From: Octopus vulgaris
Taxonomy: Eukaryota
Direction of reading: 5' to 3'
Length of the DNA stretch: 64,000 nucleotides
NCBI GenBank assembly: GCA_951406725.2
Contig: OX597823.1
Span: 65,410,001-65,474,000 of the forward strand
Shown: positions 780-63,788 of the stretch, in pieces
Layout of the letters: every line of letters starts with the position of its first letter
Numbering within the stretch: the stretch's first letter is position 1
Position numbers and translations under genes: made by a program
Notes under the pieces: model-generated
Told to the model about the DNA's origin: nothing
The model's input: the letters and a program-made list of their open reading frames with translations, nothing else
The model's database searches: none

Positions 780-1103
780 TGGTAGTATACTGTCAACATA
801 ACGTGACAGTTCCGTAAGAAAATTACACCACCCTAAGAAAGCATCGATGCTTCCTGTCGGCTTTGACACATTTCCTGTGTCCTTATATTTGCTATCCTGT
901 ATTGTTGACGGGTAAGACCCAGAAACATTCATGTCTTCAGGTGTGAATCCTATTTGGTGGGGGCGCTTGCCTCCCCTTCGCAAATATAAGGACACAGGAT
1001 ATGTGTCAAAGCCGACTGGAAGCGTCGATGCTTCCTCGGGCTAAATTGCGGTGGTGTAATTCCCTTACAGGACTGTCACGTTATGTTGACAGTATACAAC
1101 CAC
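780..1103. mobile_element. PLE-like unit with ~115-bp inverted repeat (780-892 / 980-1103)
   Basis: Arms are reverse complements (GCAAATATAAGGACACAGG...ACAGTATAC); similar to the 27149-27385 unit; spacer holds a degenerate hammerhead. Confidence 0.65.
896..941 (+). ncRNA. Degenerate minimal hammerhead ribozyme motif
   Basis: cctgta-TTGTTGA-C-GGGT aag ACCC-A-GAAA-CATtcATG-TC-ttcagg; core mutated at two positions. Confidence 0.55.
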
Positions 1104-4938: not shown

Positions 4939-5270
4939 TTGAATGAAAAAACACCGAATGCTATCAAAGTGACACAAGCGTACAAATATACGAAGCCCAA
5001 TATGCCTATCATGACAACCCGTTTGACAATGGTGCACCATATACATTTTTCCTAACCATTTGTGCGCAACATACTGATCTCATATAAAAATAAACAACGC
5101 CTAAATTTGCAAGTGGGGCCCAGTTAGATTTTTCTTCAGACCGAGTTGTCTAACCCGTTCAAAAGGTACACAAATAAGGGTTGTTTAAGGATGACGGAGA
5201 GACCGCTGTTTCCAAGGATTAATTATTCAAGCACCAAAAGAATTCATCTCAACACATGTCTATGATGCAT
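4939..5270 (-). mobile_element. Old partial copy of the ~560-bp (TAA)n-associated element
   Basis: Diverged match to 5424-5750 (ATCAAAGTGACAC, GTGGGGCCCAGTTAGA). Confidence 0.75.
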
Positions 5271-5423
<153 letters not shown>

Positions 5424-5977
5424 GTGTGAGAGAGTAGTGCATGCCATCAAAGTGACACTGGGGTAAAATATACGAAGCCCAATATACCCATCATGACTAC
5501 CCGTCTGATAAGGGTACACTAGGCACATGCATCACAACCATATGTGCGCGACATGGTGATCTCATATCAAGATAAACAGCACATGACATTGCAGGTGGGG
5601 CCCAGTTAGAATTTTCTTCTGATCGAGTAACCCATCCCACTCAAAAGGTCCCTGAAGAAGGGTTGCTTAAGGATGTTGAACGAAACACCAATGTTTCCAG
5701 AGGTGAATTATTTAAACCCCAAAGAATTCCTCTCAACACATGGCTATGATGCTCCCCCACTACTTCTGCTCGTGATCAGAGATGCACATATTGTCAGCCA
5801 CCAAGGGACATGCTCAACTGGTTATGGTCAAACAACCGACAAGCAAATCTGTGGTATTGAGCAGAATATTTGCTGTAGCCCATCTTTTATACCAAGGCAA
5901 AACAATGTACACGATAACACTTCCAATCAGTTAAGATCAGAAGCCATGAAAGCCACTGCCTGGTACTGCATCAGGGC

Positions 5978-5981
<4 letters not shown>
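5424..5981 (-). mobile_element. ~560-bp non-coding element inserted in (TAA)n
   Basis: Full copy flanked by (TTA)n on both sides; near-identical to 6108-6664. Confidence 0.85.
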
Positions 5982-6026
<45 letters not shown>

Positions 6027-6030
6027 GTTG

Positions 6031-6107
<77 letters not shown>

Positions 6108-6664
6108 GAGTGAGAGAGCAGTTTATGCCATCAAAGTGACACTGGGGTAAAATATACGAAGCCCAATATACCCATCATGACTACCCGTCTGATAAAGGTA
6201 CACCAGGCACATGCATCACAACCATATGTGCGCGACATGGTGATCTCATATCAAGATAAACAGCACATGACCTTGCAGGTGGGGCCCAGTTAGAATTTTC
6301 TTCAGGTTGAGTAGCCCATCCCGCTCAAACGGTCCCTGAATAAGGGTCGTTTAAGGATGTTGAAAGAACCACCCATGTTTCCAGAGGTGAACCATTCAAA
6401 CCCCAAAGAATCCCTCTCAACACATGGCTATGATGCTCCCCACTACTTCTGCTCGTGATCAGAGATGCACATATTGTCAGCCACTAAGGGACATGCTCAA
6501 CTGGTTAAGGTCAAACAAATGACAAGCAAATCTGTGGTATTGAGCAAAATACTTGCTGTAGCCCATCTTTTATACCAAGGCAAAACAATGTATACGATAA
6601 CACTTCCAATCAGTTAAGATCAGAAGCCATGAAAGCCACTGCCTGGTACTGCATCAGGGCATTT
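6108..6664 (-). mobile_element. ~560-bp non-coding element inserted in (TAA)n
   Basis: Second full copy, same orientation, same ends. Confidence 0.85.
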
Positions 6665-7706: not shown

Positions 7707-9788
<2,082 letters not shown>

Positions 9789-9805
9789 GTTATTATTATT
9801 ATTAT

Positions 9806-11706
9806 TCAGTAGTTTTATTTTTATAGCGTGCTTTCACTTCACTACCGAGCGCAGCTCTGTGTGCCTTGGGTATGTGCTGTGATTTGTTGTGATGCTCTGA
9901 TGGTTATTGTATGGAAAGTGTTCTGCGTAGGATGTGTGCAGTGCCTAGTAGTGCAATTTTCTGTATGCTATATGTGTTTGTAAGTCCTGGTGTTTTTGTT
10001 ATGTATTTGTCTGAATATTTTTTTATCATGCCTAATGCACCTACTATGATAGGAATTGTTTCTGTTTTCAGGTTCCACATTCTAGTTACCTCTATTTCCA
10101 GGTCTTTGTATTTTGAGAGTTTCTCCATTTCTTTTAGAGACACGTTGTCATCTGCCGGTATTGATACTTCAATTAGAAAGCATTTTTTTCTTCATGATCT
10201 CTGACAACTATATCTGGTGTGTTGGCCTTAATTTCTCTATCTGTGTGTATCGGCATATCCCAGAGTATGGTTGCTTTCTCGTTTTCTGTGACCTTTTCTG
10301 GTGTGTGCCTATACCATCTTTTTTCTGTTGTTATTCCATAATGTTGGCATAGCTTCCAATGTATGTAGGTTCCAACTCTGTCATGTCTGTGAATATATTC
10401 CTTCTTAGCCAGGACTGGGCAGCTAGAGATAATATGATTTATTGTTTCTTGTCCATCTCCACATATTCTGCAGTTACTTGTAATATTTCTTTTCATTACA
10501 TGTTTTTGGTAATTTCTGGTGGGGAGGCTTTGGTTTTGTGCTGCAATTAAAAATCCCTCTGTTTCTGCTTTGAGTCCTGAGCTTCTCAACCATTGCTGGG
10601 ATTTTTCTTTGTCTATTTCTTTTGCGTTTAGTTTAGTCCAGTATTTACCATGAAGGGGCTTTTCTTGCCATCGTTTATTCATGGTTCGTTGCTGTTCTAT
10701 TTTTAGTTTGGATTTCATTTGTTTTATAGCTTTTGTTGTTTCTTCATCATCTTCTTCTTCTTCTTCGTGTTTATTAGGTGGTATGGTCTCTTGTTTGTAT
10801 TTGTCAGCTTCCTTAAATACTGAGAACAGTTTTTTGTTTTGCTCGTGTTTTGCTGCTATCTGGATCAGTTTTCCTTCCTTCTGAAGTAGGTATTTTTGCA
10901 GTCCTATGGTGGTTATTTTATAGTAGTTTTCCAGCTGTATAAGGCCTCTACCACCTTCTATACGTTGTATATATAGTCTTTCAATGTCAGATTTTGGGTG
11001 ATGCATCCTAGATCCTGTCAGTATTTTTCTTGTTTTCCTATCTATTTTGGACAGTTCATTTCGTGTCTAGTTAAGGGTATTGTAGCTGTAACTTATAACT
11101 GGGACAGCTAAAGTGTTGATACCTATTATCTTGTTTTTAGCATTGAGCTCTGTTTTTAGTATTGATCTAACTTGTCTATAATATTCTTTTTTTATTTTCT
11201 CTTTCATTTGTGTGTGTTGTGTCTTATCTAGTTCATGGATTCCTAAGTATTTGTAACTTTGGCTTTGATCTAATTCTTTTATTTCATTGGTTTTATCTAG
11301 TGTGATGTTGTTACTCGTAACTAGTTTTCCTCTTTTCATGGTTACTTTGGTGCATTTTTCTAATCCACATTTCATATCTATTTCTTTGGTAAATCCATGA
11401 ACTGTCTTTAATAGTGTTTCCAGCTGTTTGTCATTTGCAGCGTATAGTTTTAGGTCATCCATATATAAAAGGTGGCTGATCGTTTTGCCGTAACATTTAT
11501 ATCCGCATCCAGTTCTATGTAGCATATCAGATAGAGGTAACAGTGCCAAGTAGAAAAGGAGTGGAGAGAGCGTGTCTCCCTGGAATATTCCTCTTCTAAT
11601 GGGGATGTCTTTGGTTTTCATGAGTCCCTGTTTTGTTTGGAGGTGTAGGACTGTTTGCCATTTATTCATAGAGTGCTCTATGAATTTTATGATTGTTGGT
11701 GCTACT
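9806..11706 (-). mobile_element. 5'-truncated R4/Dong-like LINE, youngest copy (ORF pieces 11067-11669, 10173-11006, 9904-10143)
   Basis: GIFQGDTLSPLLF, HLLYMDDLKLYA, CRICGDGQETINHIISSC, RHD, PDIVV, EKLSKY; few disablements; (TAA)n at 3' end. Confidence 0.9.
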
Positions 11707-17543: not shown

Positions 17544-18078
17544 AAATGTGCTGATGCAGTGCCATGCAGCGGCTGTCATGGCCTCTGACCTTAACTGGTT
17601 GGAAGTGTTATCATGTACATTGTTTTCTCTTGGCATAAAAGATGGGTTACAGTAAATATTCTACTGAATACCACAGATTTACTTGTCAGTTGCTTGACCA
17701 TAACCAGTTGAGCATGTCCCTTAGTTGCTAACGTTATGTGCATCTCTGATAACGAGCAGAAGTAGTAGGGGAACGTTATAGCCGTGTGTTGAGAGGACTT
17801 TCTTGGGATTTGAATAATTCGCTTCTGGAAACATAGATATTTCGCTCAACATCCTTTAACCAGTCTTATTCAGGGACCTTTTGAGCGGCATGGACTACTC
17901 AACATGAAGAAAATTCTAACTGGGCCCCACCTGCAAGGTCATGTGCTCTATATCTCGATATGAGATCACCGTGTCACGCACACATAGTTGTGATGCATGT
18001 GTCTGGTATGTCCTTATTAGACAACTTTGTATATTTTACCCCAGTGTCATTTTGATGTTATGCACTGCACTCTCACTC
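17544..18078 (+). mobile_element. ~560-bp (TAA)n-associated element, diverged full copy
   Basis: Reverse complement of 6108-6664, flanked by (TAA)n on the + strand. Confidence 0.85.
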
Positions 18079-19836: not shown

Positions 19837-19881
19837 TGAACTAGTACTTTCATGCATTGAATTCTGCAATCTTCGGGTTCA
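19837..19881 (-). ncRNA. Minimal hammerhead ribozyme motif, CCGAAGA core variant
   Basis: TGAAC-CCGAAGA-T-TGCA gaattcaa TGCA-T-GAAA-GTAC-TA-GTTCA; perfect 5-bp stem I, palindromic stem III. Confidence 0.75.
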
Positions 19882-20375: not shown

Positions 20376-21035
20376 TTATTGCTTATTTAGCTTGGGTTCG
20401 AATTTATCAATAAAATTCTTTTCTCTGATTTTCCTCTCGATTTCACTTGGGCTGTGTAATTTGTAGAATGGAAATATTATATATATTTTCCGACCACATG
20501 TTGCTAGGTGGTTACTCAAAGGTATCTGACGGACCTCTGGGTCTCTAATCTGTTGACGGTGTACACGTGAGCGTTCTAATAGTGCGTTTCCCGTCTGACC
20601 TACATATATTTCTTCACAATTTGGGCATTTGATGCAGTAAATTAAATTTCTGCTTTTGCAGTTCATATTCGCGTTTGTGAATATTTTCCCGGTTTTTGTG
20701 TTTATATATTGACCGGTATGTATGAATTGGCATGTGCCACATCGGCTATCATTGCATTTAGATACCGTGAATGTTTGGTCTTTGTTGCTGAGGTCAAATT
20801 TTGCCTTTGTTAGTAATGTTTTCAAGTTTTTAGGCTGTCTTTTACTAAGCACCATAGCTCGATCCTTGATTATGTCTTTTAATTCATTACTTTGGGCAAT
20901 GATTGGTAGGTTTGCTTTGGCAATGTTGAAGATATTCTGGTGACATGGGTTGTGTGTCACTATGAATGGTATGACTTGTTCTTGTTTTCCTCTTCCTTGG
21001 GTTGTCCTAAGTTGTTGTAGCCCGCTGTATGCCAT
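20376..21035 (-). CDS. C-terminal PLE ORF fragment: Cys linker + GIY-YIG endonuclease
   Basis: KCNDSRCGTC, CKSRNLIYCIKCPNCEEIYVGQT, RVHRQQI, H...E.NFIDKFEPKLN; uninterrupted ~219 codons. Confidence 0.9.
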   Translation of the reverse strand: MAYSGLQQLRTTQGRGKQEQVIPFIVTHNPCHQNIFNIAKANLPIIAQSNELKDIIKDRAMVLSKRQPKNLKTLLTKAKFDLSNKDQTFTVSKCNDSRCGTCQFIHTGQYINTKTGKIFTNANMNCKSRNLIYCIKCPNCEEIYVGQTGNALLERSRVHRQQIRDPEVRQIPLSNHLATCGRKIYIIFPFYKLHSPSEIERKIREKNFIDKFEPKLNKQ

Positions 21036-21056
21036 TTTCTATAAATGTATGCCATT

Positions 21057-26700: not shown

Positions 26701-27096
26701 TCCAGTGCGTGTATGTGTGCGTCTGTATGTCCGAATGATGTAGCAGGTTTTTTGAATAGGTAAGTGCCTGTGTGTAAGTATGTGTATTGGGCATGTGTCC
26801 CTGTGTACATGTGTGTATATTTGTTTGCATATATACGCGTGCGCTTGCACGTCTTCGTGTATGTATGTCTGGTGTGTGAGCGTGAATATGTCGGTAGTTG
26901 CGGGTTTTTTTTTGCGTTCCCTGTTATTTTAAATCAAAATGTACAGTTAAGGTGTTAAGGCTTCGTAAAACATCGAAAAGATAGAATTGTACTAACAGGA
27001 ATGCCATGAAAATGATTACGTGGAGTAAAAATAGTAAAATATTAAGCTTTGTGAGTGGATTTGGTAGAGGAGTTACTGAAACAAGCCTTTCGTGTG

Positions 27097-27138
<42 letters not shown>

Positions 27139-27148
27139 AGAGAGAGGT

Positions 27149-27385
27149 ATACTAGCCATCTCAATATAGCTAACCACTAAGGGTGAGTGTTACTGTAGAT
27201 TGTAGCCCCAGGAGAACATCGTCTAGCTGGCTTTAGGCACACTTTCTGTGCCCTTATGGTATTTGCAAAGGGAGGTCATCCCTCCTTCGTCAACCTAAGT
27301 GATACGCACGGACTGCAGTTTCTAGGTATTGACCTGTCGTCGGCGTACGACAATCACCGGTTTTCGATGAAGGGAAACGCAATAC
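27149..27385 (-). mobile_element. Short non-autonomous PLE-like / retrozyme-like unit
   Basis: ~235 bp between dinucleotide repeats; contains a well-paired hammerhead; similar to 900-1103. Confidence 0.7.
27299..27357 (-). ncRNA. Minimal hammerhead ribozyme motif, CCGACGA core variant, GUC site
   Basis: GTGAT.tgt.CGTACG-CCGACGA-C-AGGT caat ACCT-A-GAAA-CTGCAG-TC-CGTGCG.t.ATCAC. Confidence 0.8.
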
Positions 27386-27386
27386 A

Positions 27387-27457
<71 letters not shown>

Positions 27458-27458
27458 A

Positions 27459-27499
<41 letters not shown>

Positions 27500-27530
27500 C
27501 TATCTATCTATCTATCTATATCTATCTATC

Positions 27531-27605
<75 letters not shown>

Positions 27606-28939
27606 GTGTGTACGTGTGTGTATGCATGTCTGTGTGCATGTGCCTGTTTCCTCACCGCCACCAGCTGGCTATGGTGTGTTTACATGTGTAAAAAGAGACT
27701 GATAGGATAGATGCCAGGCTTTACAAATACAATTACGGGGTTGCAATTTGTTTGAATAAATCCCAGCATGGCCACAGTCCAATGACTGAAACTAGTAAAA
27801 TATAAAAGAAGATTTCCTTGATTCTTAGACTTAAAGTATAACCATACCAAATCATAGATTTGATCTCATATCACATTTTGCTTTTAATACAGAGTATATT
27901 TTTATATTTTGCAGCACAAAACCTCTTCTATGTTTATTTCCGTACCAAATACTAAAAATGTATCTATAATTGATAATTAAACTAAGAAATATATCTTACG
28001 AGGGCACCTAATTTAGGACTCTCATTTGATTAAGGGAAACATTAATCATATTAATAGAAATTGGAATTAAATATTTATCACTGCCAAATTTATTCTATAA
28101 AAGGTATGTACTCTTAAAATAAAATGTCTGGTTTTGGTAACGTGCTGGAACGTCTTTTATAAAACAGTTTACTGCTGTTTTTCTCTTTTTTTTTAAATAC
28201 TCTCTTCTTCTTAATCATCATGTGTGATGCAGCAAGAGCAGCAAAGAACGGTGTGATTAAGACACAGACGCCATCGCAAGATTCACGACGCTGGCTGTCT
28301 GATGCTTTAATTGTCATGGTGAGGTCAAACGCGCCTCGATCTGATCTATGAAGAGAATCTTACGGCGGCAACAAGGTGGACTTGGTTCACTTCTATAAAA
28401 TGATTTGTAGTGTGTTTAAGTTGTTTCTCGAGAATGTAAACATGATGTCATCTTTTTTGCGTCGAACTCTTCCACTCATATTTGTTACCCTGATCTGTGA
28501 CTGCCGCAATTCATTGAAACTAGTGCTACTTTATTGGAGTTTTGCTTATTTGTTTCGAGTTTCTCGTTTGCATTTTTAAATAATTTATATTCTGCCAACG
28601 TATAAATTTGAAAACAAATTAGCACATTTGGTTTCTATCAATTTCCCTTTTTAGTTTCCTTTCTATAACAATTATCATTTTGTCTATAAATAACGTTGCT
28701 TATAAATAGAATGGACACATGGGAAAAACGCAGGAAGAGATGAGTACTGATATTCTTCATTAATTTAGCAGAGTAAGTAGTACATGCTTAAAATATGCAA
28801 ATAAATTTGAACTTTAGAATTAAATAATCTTTGGGAGGTTGCGAGAGAAGAAAATATCTGGACTAAAATTTTAAAAGAAGACAAGGACGACTTTGGACAA
28901 CAAGTTATAACATACATTATTTACATTTTTTACAATTGA

Positions 28940-34374: not shown

Positions 34375-34877
34375 GAGTGAGAGAGCAGTGCATGCCATCA
34401 AAGTGACACTGGGGTAAAATATACGTAGCCCAATATACCCATCATGACTTCCCGTCTGATAAAGGTACACCAGGCACATGCATCACAACCATATGTGCGC
34501 GACATGGTGATCTCATATCAAGATAAACAGCACATGACCTTGCAGGTGGGGCCCAGTTAGAATTTTCTTCAGGTTGAGTAGCCCATCCCGCTCAAACGGT
34601 CCCTGAATAAGGGTTGTTTAAGGATGTTGAAAGAACCACCCATGTTTCCAGAGGTGAACTATTCAAACCCCAAAGAATCCCTCTCAACACATGGCTATGA
34701 TGCTCCCCCACTACTTCTGCTCGTGATCAGAGATGCACATATCGTCAGCCACTAAGGGACATGCTCAACTGGTTAAGGTCAAACAACTGACAAGCAAATC
34801 TGTGGTATTAAGCAGAATATTTGCTGTAGCCCATCTTTTATACCAAGACAAAACAATGTACATGATAACACTTCCAA
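34375..34877 (-). mobile_element. ~560-bp element, 5'-truncated, with long flanking duplication
   Basis: Matches 6108-6609; 34261-34300 is repeated at 34875-34914. Confidence 0.85.
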
Positions 34878-34910
34878 CGGAGATTAAAAACCTTCACCAA
34901 TCTAAATGCC

Positions 34911-40017: not shown

Positions 40018-40215
40018 CACATTCAAACATAAAAGAGATACCGAAGAATAGGATATCTGACTTGCTAGAAAGGGTAGTTAAAAACTCCAAGCCACCAATT
40101 GTTGTAATTCCGAAAGTGATTGAAAATTAAACGTTTGGTGGCTTGGAGATTTTAACTACTCTTTCTAGCAAGTCAGATATCCTATTCTTCGGTATCGCTT
40201 TTATGTTTGAATGTG
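40018..40215. repeat. Near-perfect 81-bp inverted repeat, 36-bp loop
   Basis: 40018-40098 vs 40135-40215, about three mismatches by eye. Confidence 0.9.
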
Positions 40216-42250: not shown

Positions 42251-42323
42251 TGCCGAAACCCGGGATTGAACCGGGGACCTTTAGATATTCAGTCTAACGC
42301 TCTCCCAACTGAGCTATTTCGGC
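42251..42323 (-). tRNA. tRNA-Phe(GAA), 73 nt, with U at position 37
   Basis: GCCGAAATAGCTCAGTTGGGAGAGCGTTAGACTGAATATCTAAAGGTCCCCGGTTCAATCCCGGGTTTCGGCA; full cloverleaf, intact A/B boxes. Confidence 0.95.
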
Positions 42324-45889: not shown

Positions 45890-46450
45890 GGAAAATTTCT
45901 TTCCCTTGAGATGTTTCTTCAGTTGTGGAAAGAGATGATGGTCGAAGGGGGCCAAATCAGTGAGTAAGCTGAGTGGTGTGCCAGTTCGAAGTCAGCGTCG
46001 TGTATTTTCCGTAGTTTCATGTACTGTTTCTGTTCTTGCATTGTCCTGCAAAAACAGGACACCACAACTCAGCCTTCTACGGGGTTTTTGCTTCGAAGCT
46101 ACACACAGTTTGTCCAACAGAGACATGTAGTACACTGCATCGATAGTGCCACCCTTTAGCAGGTATTTTATGAGAAGTATTCGGTTTTTGTTCCAGAACA
46201 CTGATACCAAAATCTTTCCAGCTGATGTCTGTGCTCAAACCTTCGTGGGAAGCGGTGACCCGCTGTGACGCCACTCCATTGATTGCTGATTTGTTAAGTG
46301 ATCATAATAAAGAAGCCAAATTTCATCCATTGTGACTGAACGAGCCATAAAATCAGCTTCTCACGCTGCAAACCGATCCAAAATAGCCTTTAACGTCATT
46401 ACTCTTATGCGCTTCTGATCTGCGTTCAAGCATTTCGGCACCGAAACTCT
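45888..46450 (-). mobile_element. Mariner transposase relic
   Basis: VTMDEIW, VSVFWNKNRILLIKYLLKGGTIDAVYY, VLFLQDNAR, DHHLFPQLKKHLKG. Confidence 0.85.
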
Positions 46451-55668: not shown

Positions 55669-55901
55669 TATATAGAGAGAGAGAGAGGTAATAAGAGGTA
55701 ATGGTGTCATTGAGACCCAAAGATGTCAGGTAATGCTGAATAAGTGCTTTGGATAGACCATAGTTAAATTCCAGGTTCGGTGGTTATGCGAATAGGGGGT
55801 TCAACGTTGGTCATACGTCAGCGTGTGTATATAAAACTTGTTTTTCGTAATGACATAAAAGACCAAGGGCGTGAAATTTTTGAACTTTTAAAGATAGTAG
55901 G

Positions 55902-55947
55902 TCTTACGGCTGTTTCTAGTATATTTATTATATCCCTTCATCGGAGA
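55902..55947 (-). ncRNA. Hammerhead motif, CCGATGA core variant
   Basis: TCT-CCGATGA-A-GGGATAT aataa ATATACT-A-GAAA-CAGCCG-TA-AGA. Confidence 0.6.
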
Positions 55948-56099
55948 AGGTGTGAGAGGATGGTTAAGTAATAACTAATTTAGATAAGATACAAATTAGA
56001 GATTGAGGTAGAGGAAAGAAAATCTGTGTGATATTTTATATTTTCTGTCCTCTACCTCACTGTCTAAATTAACTATTACTTAACCATCCTCTCACATCT

Positions 56100-56145
56100 T
56101 CCCCGATGAAGAGGTATTATAAATATCCTGGAAACAGCTGTAGGA
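56100..56145 (+). ncRNA. Hammerhead motif, CCGATGA core variant
   Basis: TCC-CCGATGA-A-GAGGTAT tataa ATATCCT-G-GAAA-CAGCTG-TA-GGA. Confidence 0.65.
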
Positions 56146-56232
56146 CATATCTATAAATGTTCTAAAATCTTCACAGCCTTGGTTATTTATCTCATCACGA
56201 AAACATTTTTTATGTATATATATATATATATT

Positions 56233-63509: not shown

Positions 63510-63788
63510 ATTTTTGACCTTTTTTTTATCGCTCGAAGATTGACCGTTTTTTCTAAAGGGCCAATCAAACAAGTCCATTTCTTTTTAAAGGTGTAGCGTT
63601 TGTAAGAGTATAGATTGAATTAATATATAAGTTCCATTCTAGCAAAAACTGTCTGATGAACGGCAACGAGAAACTCAGAGTAACAGATTTTGTTGAATTT
63701 TCTGCTGCTTAAAATAAAGCATATTACTCTACCACTGGTATTTGAGTACTCTTTTTTCCACCTTGTTTCACATTTATGTGTTTACTCC

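What the first reader, a model, noticed from the sequence alone, without database searches (positions are those of the whole stretch)
27299..27357. Best-preserved variant hammerhead, ready to test
Seen: 6-bp stem I with a further 5-bp extension past an internal loop, perfect 4-bp stem II with a CAAU loop, CUGCAG palindrome and GUC cleavage triplet. CpGs are intact, suggesting a young copy. Inference: the stem I internal loop could dock with loop II as in extended hammerheads.
Basis: partly seen in the sequence, partly recalled or inferred. Interest (0 to 1): 0.7.

Follow-up and report, generated by a model that had tools for sequence, protein, structure and literature searches.

The report
Variant hammerhead ribozyme in animal repeat
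This is a real hammerhead-ribozyme-shaped motif inside a short, highly repeated element of an animal genome, likely spread by Penelope-like retrotransposons; the whole family has one unusual mismatch beside the catalytic core, and this copy has an extra core change that would likely make it a slow cutter, so it is a modest variant of a known system.

Summary
The motif is real. It is a minus-strand type I hammerhead (2 descriptor hits in the window; 0 hits in 400 of 400 shuffles). It lies in a ~232-bp element (27147-27378) inserted in a (TA)n microsatellite. Contigs of four runs from three organisms show a high-copy family. A distant paralogue at 870-1097 keeps the fold through compensatory changes. 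(1) Stem II is better read as a C10.1·A11.1 mismatch, three pairs and an A-ending hexaloop, because the fourth pair is broken in 33-42% of family depth. That geometry, with unpaired U1.7, supports the docking idea. (2) This is not the best copy to test: 73-82% of family depth has canonical U4, while this copy has C4, a change known to lower activity. (3) CpG content equals background (0.76 against 0.76), so it does not show youth. Most likely a Penelope-mobilised non-autonomous repeat (pLTR or retrozyme monomer) with a slow, dimer-dependent ribozyme. Cleavage, transcription and the partner element are untested. The family-wide C·A mismatch was not found in my literature searches. Verdict: new variant of a known kind, modest interest.

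The parts
27147..27378 (-). Whole short repeat element (~232 bp) carrying the hammerhead; high-copy family
   Evidence: (stretch 27150-27385): 2135, 1435, 905 and 141 contigs laid in 4 of 4 runs; depth falls about 10-fold between bins 27366-73 and 27374-81. The 3' end motif AGTATAC at 27153-27147 is shared with the paralogue.
27344..27349 (-). Stem I, 5' strand (6 bp with 27305-27310)
   Evidence: Pair probabilities 0.93-0.98. Against the paralogue 896-901/936-941, read by hand: 3 of 6 pairs changed on both sides, 1 on one side, 1 same, 1 broken.
27337..27343 (-). Core C3-A9, CCGACGA: C4 instead of U4, C7
   Evidence: Family has U4 in 73-82% of depth, and position 7 takes all four letters.
27323..27336 (-). 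Helix II: C10.1(27336)·A11.1(27323) mismatch, three pairs 27335-27333 with 27324-27326, hexaloop 27332-27327 ending in A
   Evidence: C27336 kept in 81-99% and A27323 in 80-90% of family depth. First pair A-U has G at 27335 in 9-22% and C at 27324 in 7-17% and is G-C in the paralogue.
27319..27322 (-). Core G12-A15.1 (GAAA)
   Evidence: No variant row listed (40 rows shown, 9 hidden).
27312..27319 (-). Self-complementary helix III (8 nt including A15.1 and U16.1), predicted dimer interface
   Evidence: Intermolecular duplex -11.1 kcal/mol. The one listed variant, at 27314 (1-16% of depth), leaves a G·U pair.
27311..27311 (-). C17; predicted cleavage 3' of it (GUC triplet)
   Evidence: Hammerhead geometry; not tested.
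27299..27310 (-). Stem I 3' strand (27310-27305), unpaired U1.7 (27304), extension strand (27303-27299)
   Evidence: U at 1.7 also in the paralogue.
27350..27378 (-). 5' side of the internal loop (27352-27350) and 5' arm of a long imperfect hairpin that closes on about 27275
   Evidence: Folds (z = -3.05 for 27260-27390). Outer part not shown to be conserved.
27236..27252 (-). Conserved 6-bp hairpin in the 3' domain
   Evidence: 6 of 6 pairs kept and 1 of 6 changed on both sides against the paralogue (two sequences only, shuffle control not significant). The family variant at 27237 leaves G·U.
27386..27600 (.). (TA)n-type microsatellite at the 5' flank; a composite (TA)(TG)(GA) tract lies at about 27093-27146 on the other side
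   Evidence: Both tracts lie between two halves of an older repeat (27044-27093 and 27691-27813).
870..1097 (+). Distant paralogue of the element, with a decayed hammerhead core at 902-908 and an inverted partial copy at 782-905 (-)
   Evidence: Local alignment score 67.5 against 19.6 +/- 2.7 (max 33) in 500 shuffles; best non-self tile of 1110. Alignments.

Best explanation
This is a type I hammerhead motif in one copy of a ~230-bp high-copy repeat that is likely mobilised by Penelope-like retrotransposons (a pLTR-derived or retrozyme-like monomer), and it would likely cut slowly and mainly as a dimer, with this copy likely slower than the family majority. Shown: the anatomy; the family in several organisms; covariation with a paralogue; the family-wide C10.1·A11.1 mismatch; minority U4C; the (TA)n target; inverted partial copies. 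Inferred mechanism: a transcript folds stem I, and U1.7 docks on the last A of loop II. Two RNAs pair through the 8-nt palindrome to build helix III. G12 and G8 then catalyse cleavage after C27311, leaving a 2',3'-cyclic phosphate and a 5'-OH. The inserted unit contains sequence on both sides of the cut, so the RNA that a Penelope-type RT-GIY-YIG protein copies into (TA)n must be uncut or multimeric/circular. A damped ribozyme is therefore tolerable. My odds: true hammerhead homologue 0.95; Penelope-driven 0.75; family majority cleaves measurably 0.6; this copy cleaves measurably as a dimer 0.4.
For: Descriptor hits 2 against 0 in 400 of 400 shuffles. Family variation follows hammerhead rules: position 7 is free, while no variant row is listed for G5, A6, G8, A9, G12-A15.1, U16.1, C17 or stem I (40 rows shown, 9 hidden). 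The paralogue keeps stems I and II, C·A, U1.7, an A-ending loop II and a near-palindromic helix III. Penelope signs: (TA)n flanks; an inverted partial copy at 782-905; 4 of 4 listed joints are opposite-strand, one contig each; depth is higher at the 3' part than at the 5' part. A second hammerhead with the same two deviations lies about 500 nt behind a GIY-YIG ORF (PF01541, E 3.5e-6) whose homologues are RT-endonuclease polyproteins. Literature: palindromic helix III and dimer action in Penelope hammerheads (PMC4209133); uncut RNA is the main insertion substrate of a Poseidon element (PMC11167929); retrozymes derive from pLTRs (bioRxiv 10.64898/2026.07.22.740005).
Against: No RT or endonuclease ORF is attached to this element, and it has no BLAST match in 80 PLE-related loci, so the partner is unidentified. 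No head-to-tail joint is listed (0 of 4), so no tandem partner for dimerisation is shown, and no second close copy lies in the window. The monomer is predicted to misfold: hammerhead fold -9.5 against -18.2 kcal/mol; stem II pair probability 0.01 or less; the approximate dimer fold is -31.7 against -36.4. A mispair at 10.1·11.1 or a core change disqualified hits in Perreault et al. 2011. 8 of 9 Xenopus retrozyme dimers gave no cleavage. Family percentages come from contig depth laid on this copy, so they lean towards it and carry no haplotypes.
Confidence: 0.7

Rival explanations
1. Dead relic: the family descends from a canonical hammerhead, and C10.1·A11.1 plus U4C made it inactive. It spreads only because the Penelope protein recognises its 3' domain.
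For: Hammerhead cleavage is not needed for insertion in vitro. Naiads spread without hammerheads. The monomer is predicted to misfold. The paralogue has two core changes.
Against: Catalytic positions show no listed variation while position 7 and loop II vary widely. C·A, U1.7 and both stems are kept between two diverged families.
Confidence: 0.2
2. Fully active extended hammerhead: U1.7-loop II docking compensates for both deviations, so this copy cuts fast at about 1 mM Mg2+, possibly in a circular retrozyme cycle.
For: Canonical geometry of 6-bp helix I, four-position helix II and short palindromic helix III. Unpaired U1.7 and terminal loop A. Tertiary contacts are thought to offset core variants, U4C included.
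Against: U4C lowers activity considerably in vitro, and CUGA-turn mutants had low activity in a deep scan of a type III hammerhead (PMC9901934). Helix III is only 2 bp as a monomer. No tandem joints are listed.
Confidence: 0.08
3. Chance or mis-assigned structure: the motif is an apical part of a long hairpin made by inverted insertion and only resembles a hammerhead.
For: No Rfam hammerhead match. The predicted fold is a plain rod.
Against: 0 hits in 400 shuffles. Covariation with the paralogue. Rfam also gave 0 matches on 8 of 8 PLE loci that hold clear canonical-core hammerheads, so the blank is uninformative.
Confidence: 0.02

Closest known systems
Hammerheads in pLTRs of Penelope-like elements (Cervera and de la Pena 2014, PMC4209133; dimer cleavage in Lunse et al., cited in PMC6765202, paper itself not held)
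   Same: Type I topology, small palindromic helix III, mostly single dispersed motifs, opposite-strand neighbours. One unpaired letter on each side of helix II appears in my parse of the Hydra row of Fig. S3 (GAAA letters displaced in the text) and in PLE locus L001.
   Different: Their consensus keeps G10.1-C11.1 and U4 and lacks tertiary contacts. Here the family has C·A at 10.1·11.1, a 6-bp helix I with U1.7 and a hexaloop. No ORF is attached.
Canonical type I hammerheads of metazoan non-LTR retrozymes (PMC7229834; bioRxiv 10.64898/2026.07.22.740005; Schistosoma Sm-alpha type)
   Same: 6-bp helix I, four-position helix II, short palindromic helix III, unit length about 230 nt, no coding capacity. 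The family's alternative loop II letters (CAAAUA if the two listed changes co-occur) agree with letters in Fig. S1 of PMC4209133 (layout scrambled) and with my recollection of the S. mansoni loop.
   Different: No tandem array shown (0 of 4 joints head-to-tail). 10.1·11.1 is mispaired. No circular RNA or expression shown.
Natural core-variant hammerheads (Perreault et al. 2011, PMC3088659): viroid U4C; U10.1·U11.1
   Same: U4C and a 10.1·11.1 mismatch each occur in nature and keep some function.
   Different: The passage names U·U, not C·A, and calls such variants rare. Here the mismatch is the majority state of a high-copy family, and this copy combines it with U4C.

Membership tests
Hammerhead ribozyme, type I (strict consensus of Perreault 2011) | Three helices around the core, open ends in stem I | tested here: met
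   covariation with the paralogue.
Hammerhead ribozyme, type I (strict consensus of Perreault 2011) | Core C3 U4 G5 A6 N7 G8 A9 / G12 A13 A14 A15 / U16 H17 | tested here: not met
   This copy has C4; 73-82% of family depth has U4, so the family majority meets it.
Hammerhead ribozyme, type I (strict consensus of Perreault 2011) | Paired 10.1-11.1 next to the core | tested here: not met
   C·A in this copy, in about 80% or more of family depth and in the paralogue. It works like a hammerhead but is a variant of the strict class.
Hammerhead ribozyme, type I (strict consensus of Perreault 2011) | Site-specific self-cleavage | not testable with these tools
   Only contigs were available; they show no RNA ends.
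Extended (tertiary-stabilised) type I hammerhead | Unpaired U1.7 and terminal A of loop II | tested here: met
   U27304 and A27327; kept in the paralogue; contact described in PMC11875169. The contact itself is not shown.
Penelope-like element pLTR | Adjacent RT plus GIY-YIG ORF | tested here: not met
   No ORF in the element. The nearest GIY-YIG fragment is 6 kb away and has another 3' end. No match in 80 PLE-related loci.
Penelope-like element pLTR | (TA)n target, inverted partial copies, 3' bias | tested here: met
   Joints rest on one contig each.
Non-LTR retrozyme | Head-to-tail tandem units each with a hammerhead | tested here: inconclusive
   Single copy here; 0 of 4 listed joints head-to-tail, but contigs collapse arrays and the unit may be longer than the stretch laid.
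Non-LTR retrozyme | Abundant linear and circular monomer RNA | not testable with these tools
   No holder on record as RNA; all runs are contigs.

The most novel reading that the evidence does not exclude
A successful retroelement lineage, shared by several related animals, has fixed a C10.1·A11.1 mismatch in an otherwise canonical, docking-competent hammerhead and repeatedly tolerates U4C. U4C also appears in a second, unrelated Penelope 3' end and in an inverted pair in the same window. These would be deliberately damped ribozymes that let uncut RNA survive as the template for insertion, forming a large class that standard descriptors and Rfam miss and a natural mutant library for the 10.1·11.1 and U4 positions.
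Probability: 0.3. Interest if true: 0.55.

Novelty: new variant of a known kind. Interest (0 to 1): 0.3.

Why it matters
Hammerheads in Penelope-like elements and retrozymes are well known, so the system is not new. What could matter is that G10.1-C11.1 is called the most conserved pair after A15.1-U16.1, yet a high-copy family keeps C·A there together with the docking nucleotides. If it cleaves, it widens the hammerhead consensus and explains missed motifs in animal genomes. Comparing U4 and C4 subfamilies by copy number and rate would test the open question of whether Penelope hammerheads need to cut, or need to cut slowly.

Tried and rejected
No whole genome is held, so copies could not be aligned. 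Rfam: no hammerhead match among the 150 rows shown of 202 for the window, none among 3 matches for 27150-27385, and 0 matches on 8 control PLE loci; treated as uninformative. Exact 22-base pattern: 0 matches in metagenome contigs and viral contigs. PLE endonuclease alignment: no confirmed relative in genome contigs (0 of 38) or viral contigs (0 of 20). No RNA holder listed; run X13 is RNA only by guess and its 8 listed pieces differ from this copy at 7-25 letters, so expression is neither supported nor excluded. CpG decay as the cause of the U4/C4 split was rejected: it should give G5A as often, and no such row is listed. An extra base after A9 with a shifted helix II was considered: it gives A·A and only two further pairs in this copy; it may fit the minority with G at 27335 and C at 27323. 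U4C as a general trait of this PLE clade was not supported: 0 of 17 C3-G8 motifs among 20 hits in 18 of 80 loci have C4, and 1 of 3 U3-A8 motifs does; 0 of 12 motifs found behind the ORF in 31 loci have it. Host exons: 118 of 206 candidate frames scanned, only transposon domains passed or approached cut-off, so gene context is unknown. Earlier findings: none near, by sequence or by the first word search. Lunse et al. is not held; the supplement of PMC7229834 was too large; bioRxiv supplements are closed. Any of these could already show this variant.

Full report
Setting. The window is AT-rich animal-type DNA full of microsatellites and transposon remnants. It looks octopus-like to me, but that is recalled and was not tested; the organisms in the run search are coded. 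No whole genome is held.

Observation. On the minus strand, 27357-27299 reads: 5-bp extension, UGU, stem I (27349-27344), CCGACGA, C, AGGU-CAAU-ACCU, A, GAAA, CUGCAG, UC, stem I (27310-27305), U, extension. A descriptor with free position 4 and free 10.1·11.1 finds 2 motifs in the window and none in any of 400 shuffles. These probably explain the Rfam blank, but Rfam also missed clear canonical-core motifs in 8 of 8 PLE loci.

The element. The motif sits near the 5' end of a ~232-bp unit (27147-27378) between microsatellite tracts, which themselves lie between two halves of an older repeat. The stretch is held by 21 of 24 listed runs, from four coded organisms. Laying 4 of those runs gave 2135, 1435, 905 and 141 contigs; in run X2, 251 were 99% or more alike and 376 under 90%. 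Depth is no copy number, but this is plainly a high-copy family. Depth drops about 10-fold at 27374, and no common continuation appears among the 24 loose ends shown (314 hidden), so the 5' end is probably there. All 4 listed joints are opposite-strand, each from one contig; none is head-to-tail.

What the family says (percentages of depth for X2, X7, X8, X13; 40 rows shown, 9 hidden; no haplotypes; biased towards this copy). Position 4 is U in 73, 82, 75 and 78%, so C4 is a minority state, though too common to be a private error. Position 7 takes all four letters. C3 is U in 4-19%. No row is listed for G5, A6, G8, A9, G12-A15.1, U16.1, C17, stem I, U1.7 or the 5-bp extension. C27336 is kept in 98, 99, 96 and 81%, and A27323 in 85, 80, 90 and 80%, so the mismatch is the family norm. 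The first Watson-Crick pair shows G at 27335 (9-22%) and C at 27324 (7-17%), as a compensatory change would give. The one listed palindrome variant leaves a G·U pair.

A paralogue in the window. 870-1097 (+) is a distant relative: score 67.5 against 19.6 +/- 2.7 in 500 shuffles, and the best non-self tile of 1110. Its core is decayed (two changes), but read by hand its stem I has 3 of 6 pairs changed on both sides, 1 on one side, 1 unchanged and 1 broken. It keeps C·A, has G-C for the first A-U pair, U at 1.7, a loop II ending in A and a near-palindromic helix III. It shares a 3' hairpin (6 of 6 pairs kept, 1 compensatory; two sequences only, control not significant) and the 3' end motif before a microsatellite. 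An inverted partial copy abuts it at 782-905.

Re-reading the structure. Counting C·A as 10.1·11.1 gives a 6-bp helix I, a four-position helix II and a short palindromic helix III, which is the canonical metazoan type I layout (PMC4209133), plus a hexaloop ending in A and an unpaired U1.7. The U1.7 to terminal loop A Hoogsteen contact is described for the S. mansoni structure (PMC11875169). It remains a prediction.

Mechanism. Helix III is only 2 bp in a monomer, and the monomer hammerhead fold is 8.7 kcal/mol above the predicted minimum; the 8-nt palindrome gives -11.1 kcal/mol between two RNAs. Nearest-neighbour folding cannot score the core, so this is weak evidence, but it fits dimer-dependent cleavage as reported for Penelope hammerheads, whose in vitro activity is low (review PMC6765202). 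U4C lowers activity considerably in vitro yet allows viroid infectivity (PMC3088659). A U·U mismatch at 10.1·11.1 is natural and is the best-tolerated mispair; C·A is not named there. The inserted unit spans the cut, so its template must be uncut or multimeric. This agrees with PMC11167929, where uncut RNA was the main substrate and cleavage needed the element's protein. I infer a slow ribozyme in a non-autonomous repeat moved by a Penelope-type protein.

The Penelope link is indirect. A C-terminal GIY-YIG fragment at 20376-21038 (-) has 15 longer homologues, 11 of them with an RT domain on record, and a hammerhead about 500 nt downstream with C4 and U·U flanking helix II. That shows the architecture in a true PLE end of this genome, but its 3' region is not homologous to our element. 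Among 80 related loci, 20 motifs were found in 18; only L001 has the one-plus-one flank, and none of the 17 C3-G8 cores has C4. Our element matched none of the 80.

Age. CpG o/e is 0.76 in the element and 0.76 in the masked window, so CpG retention says nothing here. Three near-private substitutions and a two-letter loss point to a few percent divergence from the family: fairly recent, not pristine.

Novelty. Searches: hammerhead + Penelope-like + palindrom (9 papers); hammerhead ribozyme + octopus (5); hammerhead + Penelope-like + dimer + variant (21); hammerhead + U4C (1); G10.1 + C11.1 + mismatch (0); Penelope + Neptune + pLTR (4); hammerhead + ribozyme + cephalopod (7). What I saw of these showed no C10.1·A11.1 family. 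The 2026 Octopus vulgaris repeat annotation has no mention of hammerhead or ribozyme in text or supplement (PMC13282606); the giant squid paper counts 235 Rfam hammerhead-1 matches (PMC6962438). Lunse et al. (many PLE variants, by recall) could not be read and may cover this.

What I read. PMC4209133: parts 1-2 of 4 of the text and parts 1-2 of 3 of the supplement. bioRxiv 10.64898/2026.07.22.740005: parts 1-3 of 5. PMC3088659: section 8 and passages. Passages only: PMC8557442 (plus two supplement searches), PMC11167929, PMC6765202, PMC9901934, PMC7229834, PMC6155905, PMC11875169, PMC13282606, PMC6962438. Others: search listings only.

Verdict. A real hammerhead homologue in a high-copy, probably Penelope-driven repeat; a new variant of a known kind because of the family-wide C·A mismatch. 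This copy is a second-choice test subject; a U4 copy should be run beside it. Interest 0.3.

Noticed in passing
window 19842-19876 (-) and 20376-21038 (-): 5'-truncated Penelope-like fragment in (TA)n: C-terminal GIY-YIG with a CxxxxCxxC linker (Neptune/Nematis-like by Craig et al. 2021), followed by a hammerhead with C4 and U·U flanking helix II.
   Followed up: partly
window 782-1100: Inverted pair formed by a distant paralogue of the hammerhead element and its partial copy.
   Followed up: yes
window 55831-56213: Inverted pair, each arm with a decayed hammerhead-like motif with a CCGA core (55944 -, 56103 +) and a palindromic or near-palindromic helix III.
   Followed up: partly
window 40018-40215: Inverted pair with a CCGAAGA...GAAA motif in each arm (40041 +, 40192 -); no convincing stem I.
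   Followed up: partly
window 63653-63682 (+): Hammerhead-like motif with canonical CUGAUGA core, 2-bp helix II capped by GCAA and flanked by A·A, near-palindromic helix III and a 4-bp stem I.
   Followed up: partly
place 27169: A subset of family contigs in all four runs continues with a different sequence beyond 27169, that is an alternative 3' end of the element.
   Followed up: no
run X13, places 27336 and 27323: In the run guessed to be RNA, G at 10.1 is 19% and C at 11.1 20% of depth, against 1-4% G in the other three runs; it rests on 2 and 5 contigs only.
   Followed up: no
window 8675-11705 (-): Fragments of a non-LTR retrotransposon (RVT_1 and zf-RVT domains) near long (ATT)n tracts.
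   Followed up: no
window 42251-42323 (-): tRNA gene (Rfam 68.6 bits), Phe-like by recall, with an A in the anticodon loop position where the usual letter seems to differ.
   Followed up: no
window 5426-6662, 17551-18077, 34375-34878: A ~550-bp repeat family ending in (ATT)n, with tandem copies at 4958-6662.
   Followed up: no
L008 716, L015 2271, L036 572: PLE-associated hammerheads with the U3-A8 covariation; L036 also has C at position 4.
   Followed up: no
window 45995-46234 (-): Mariner-type transposase fragment (PF01359, E 2e-9).
   Followed up: no
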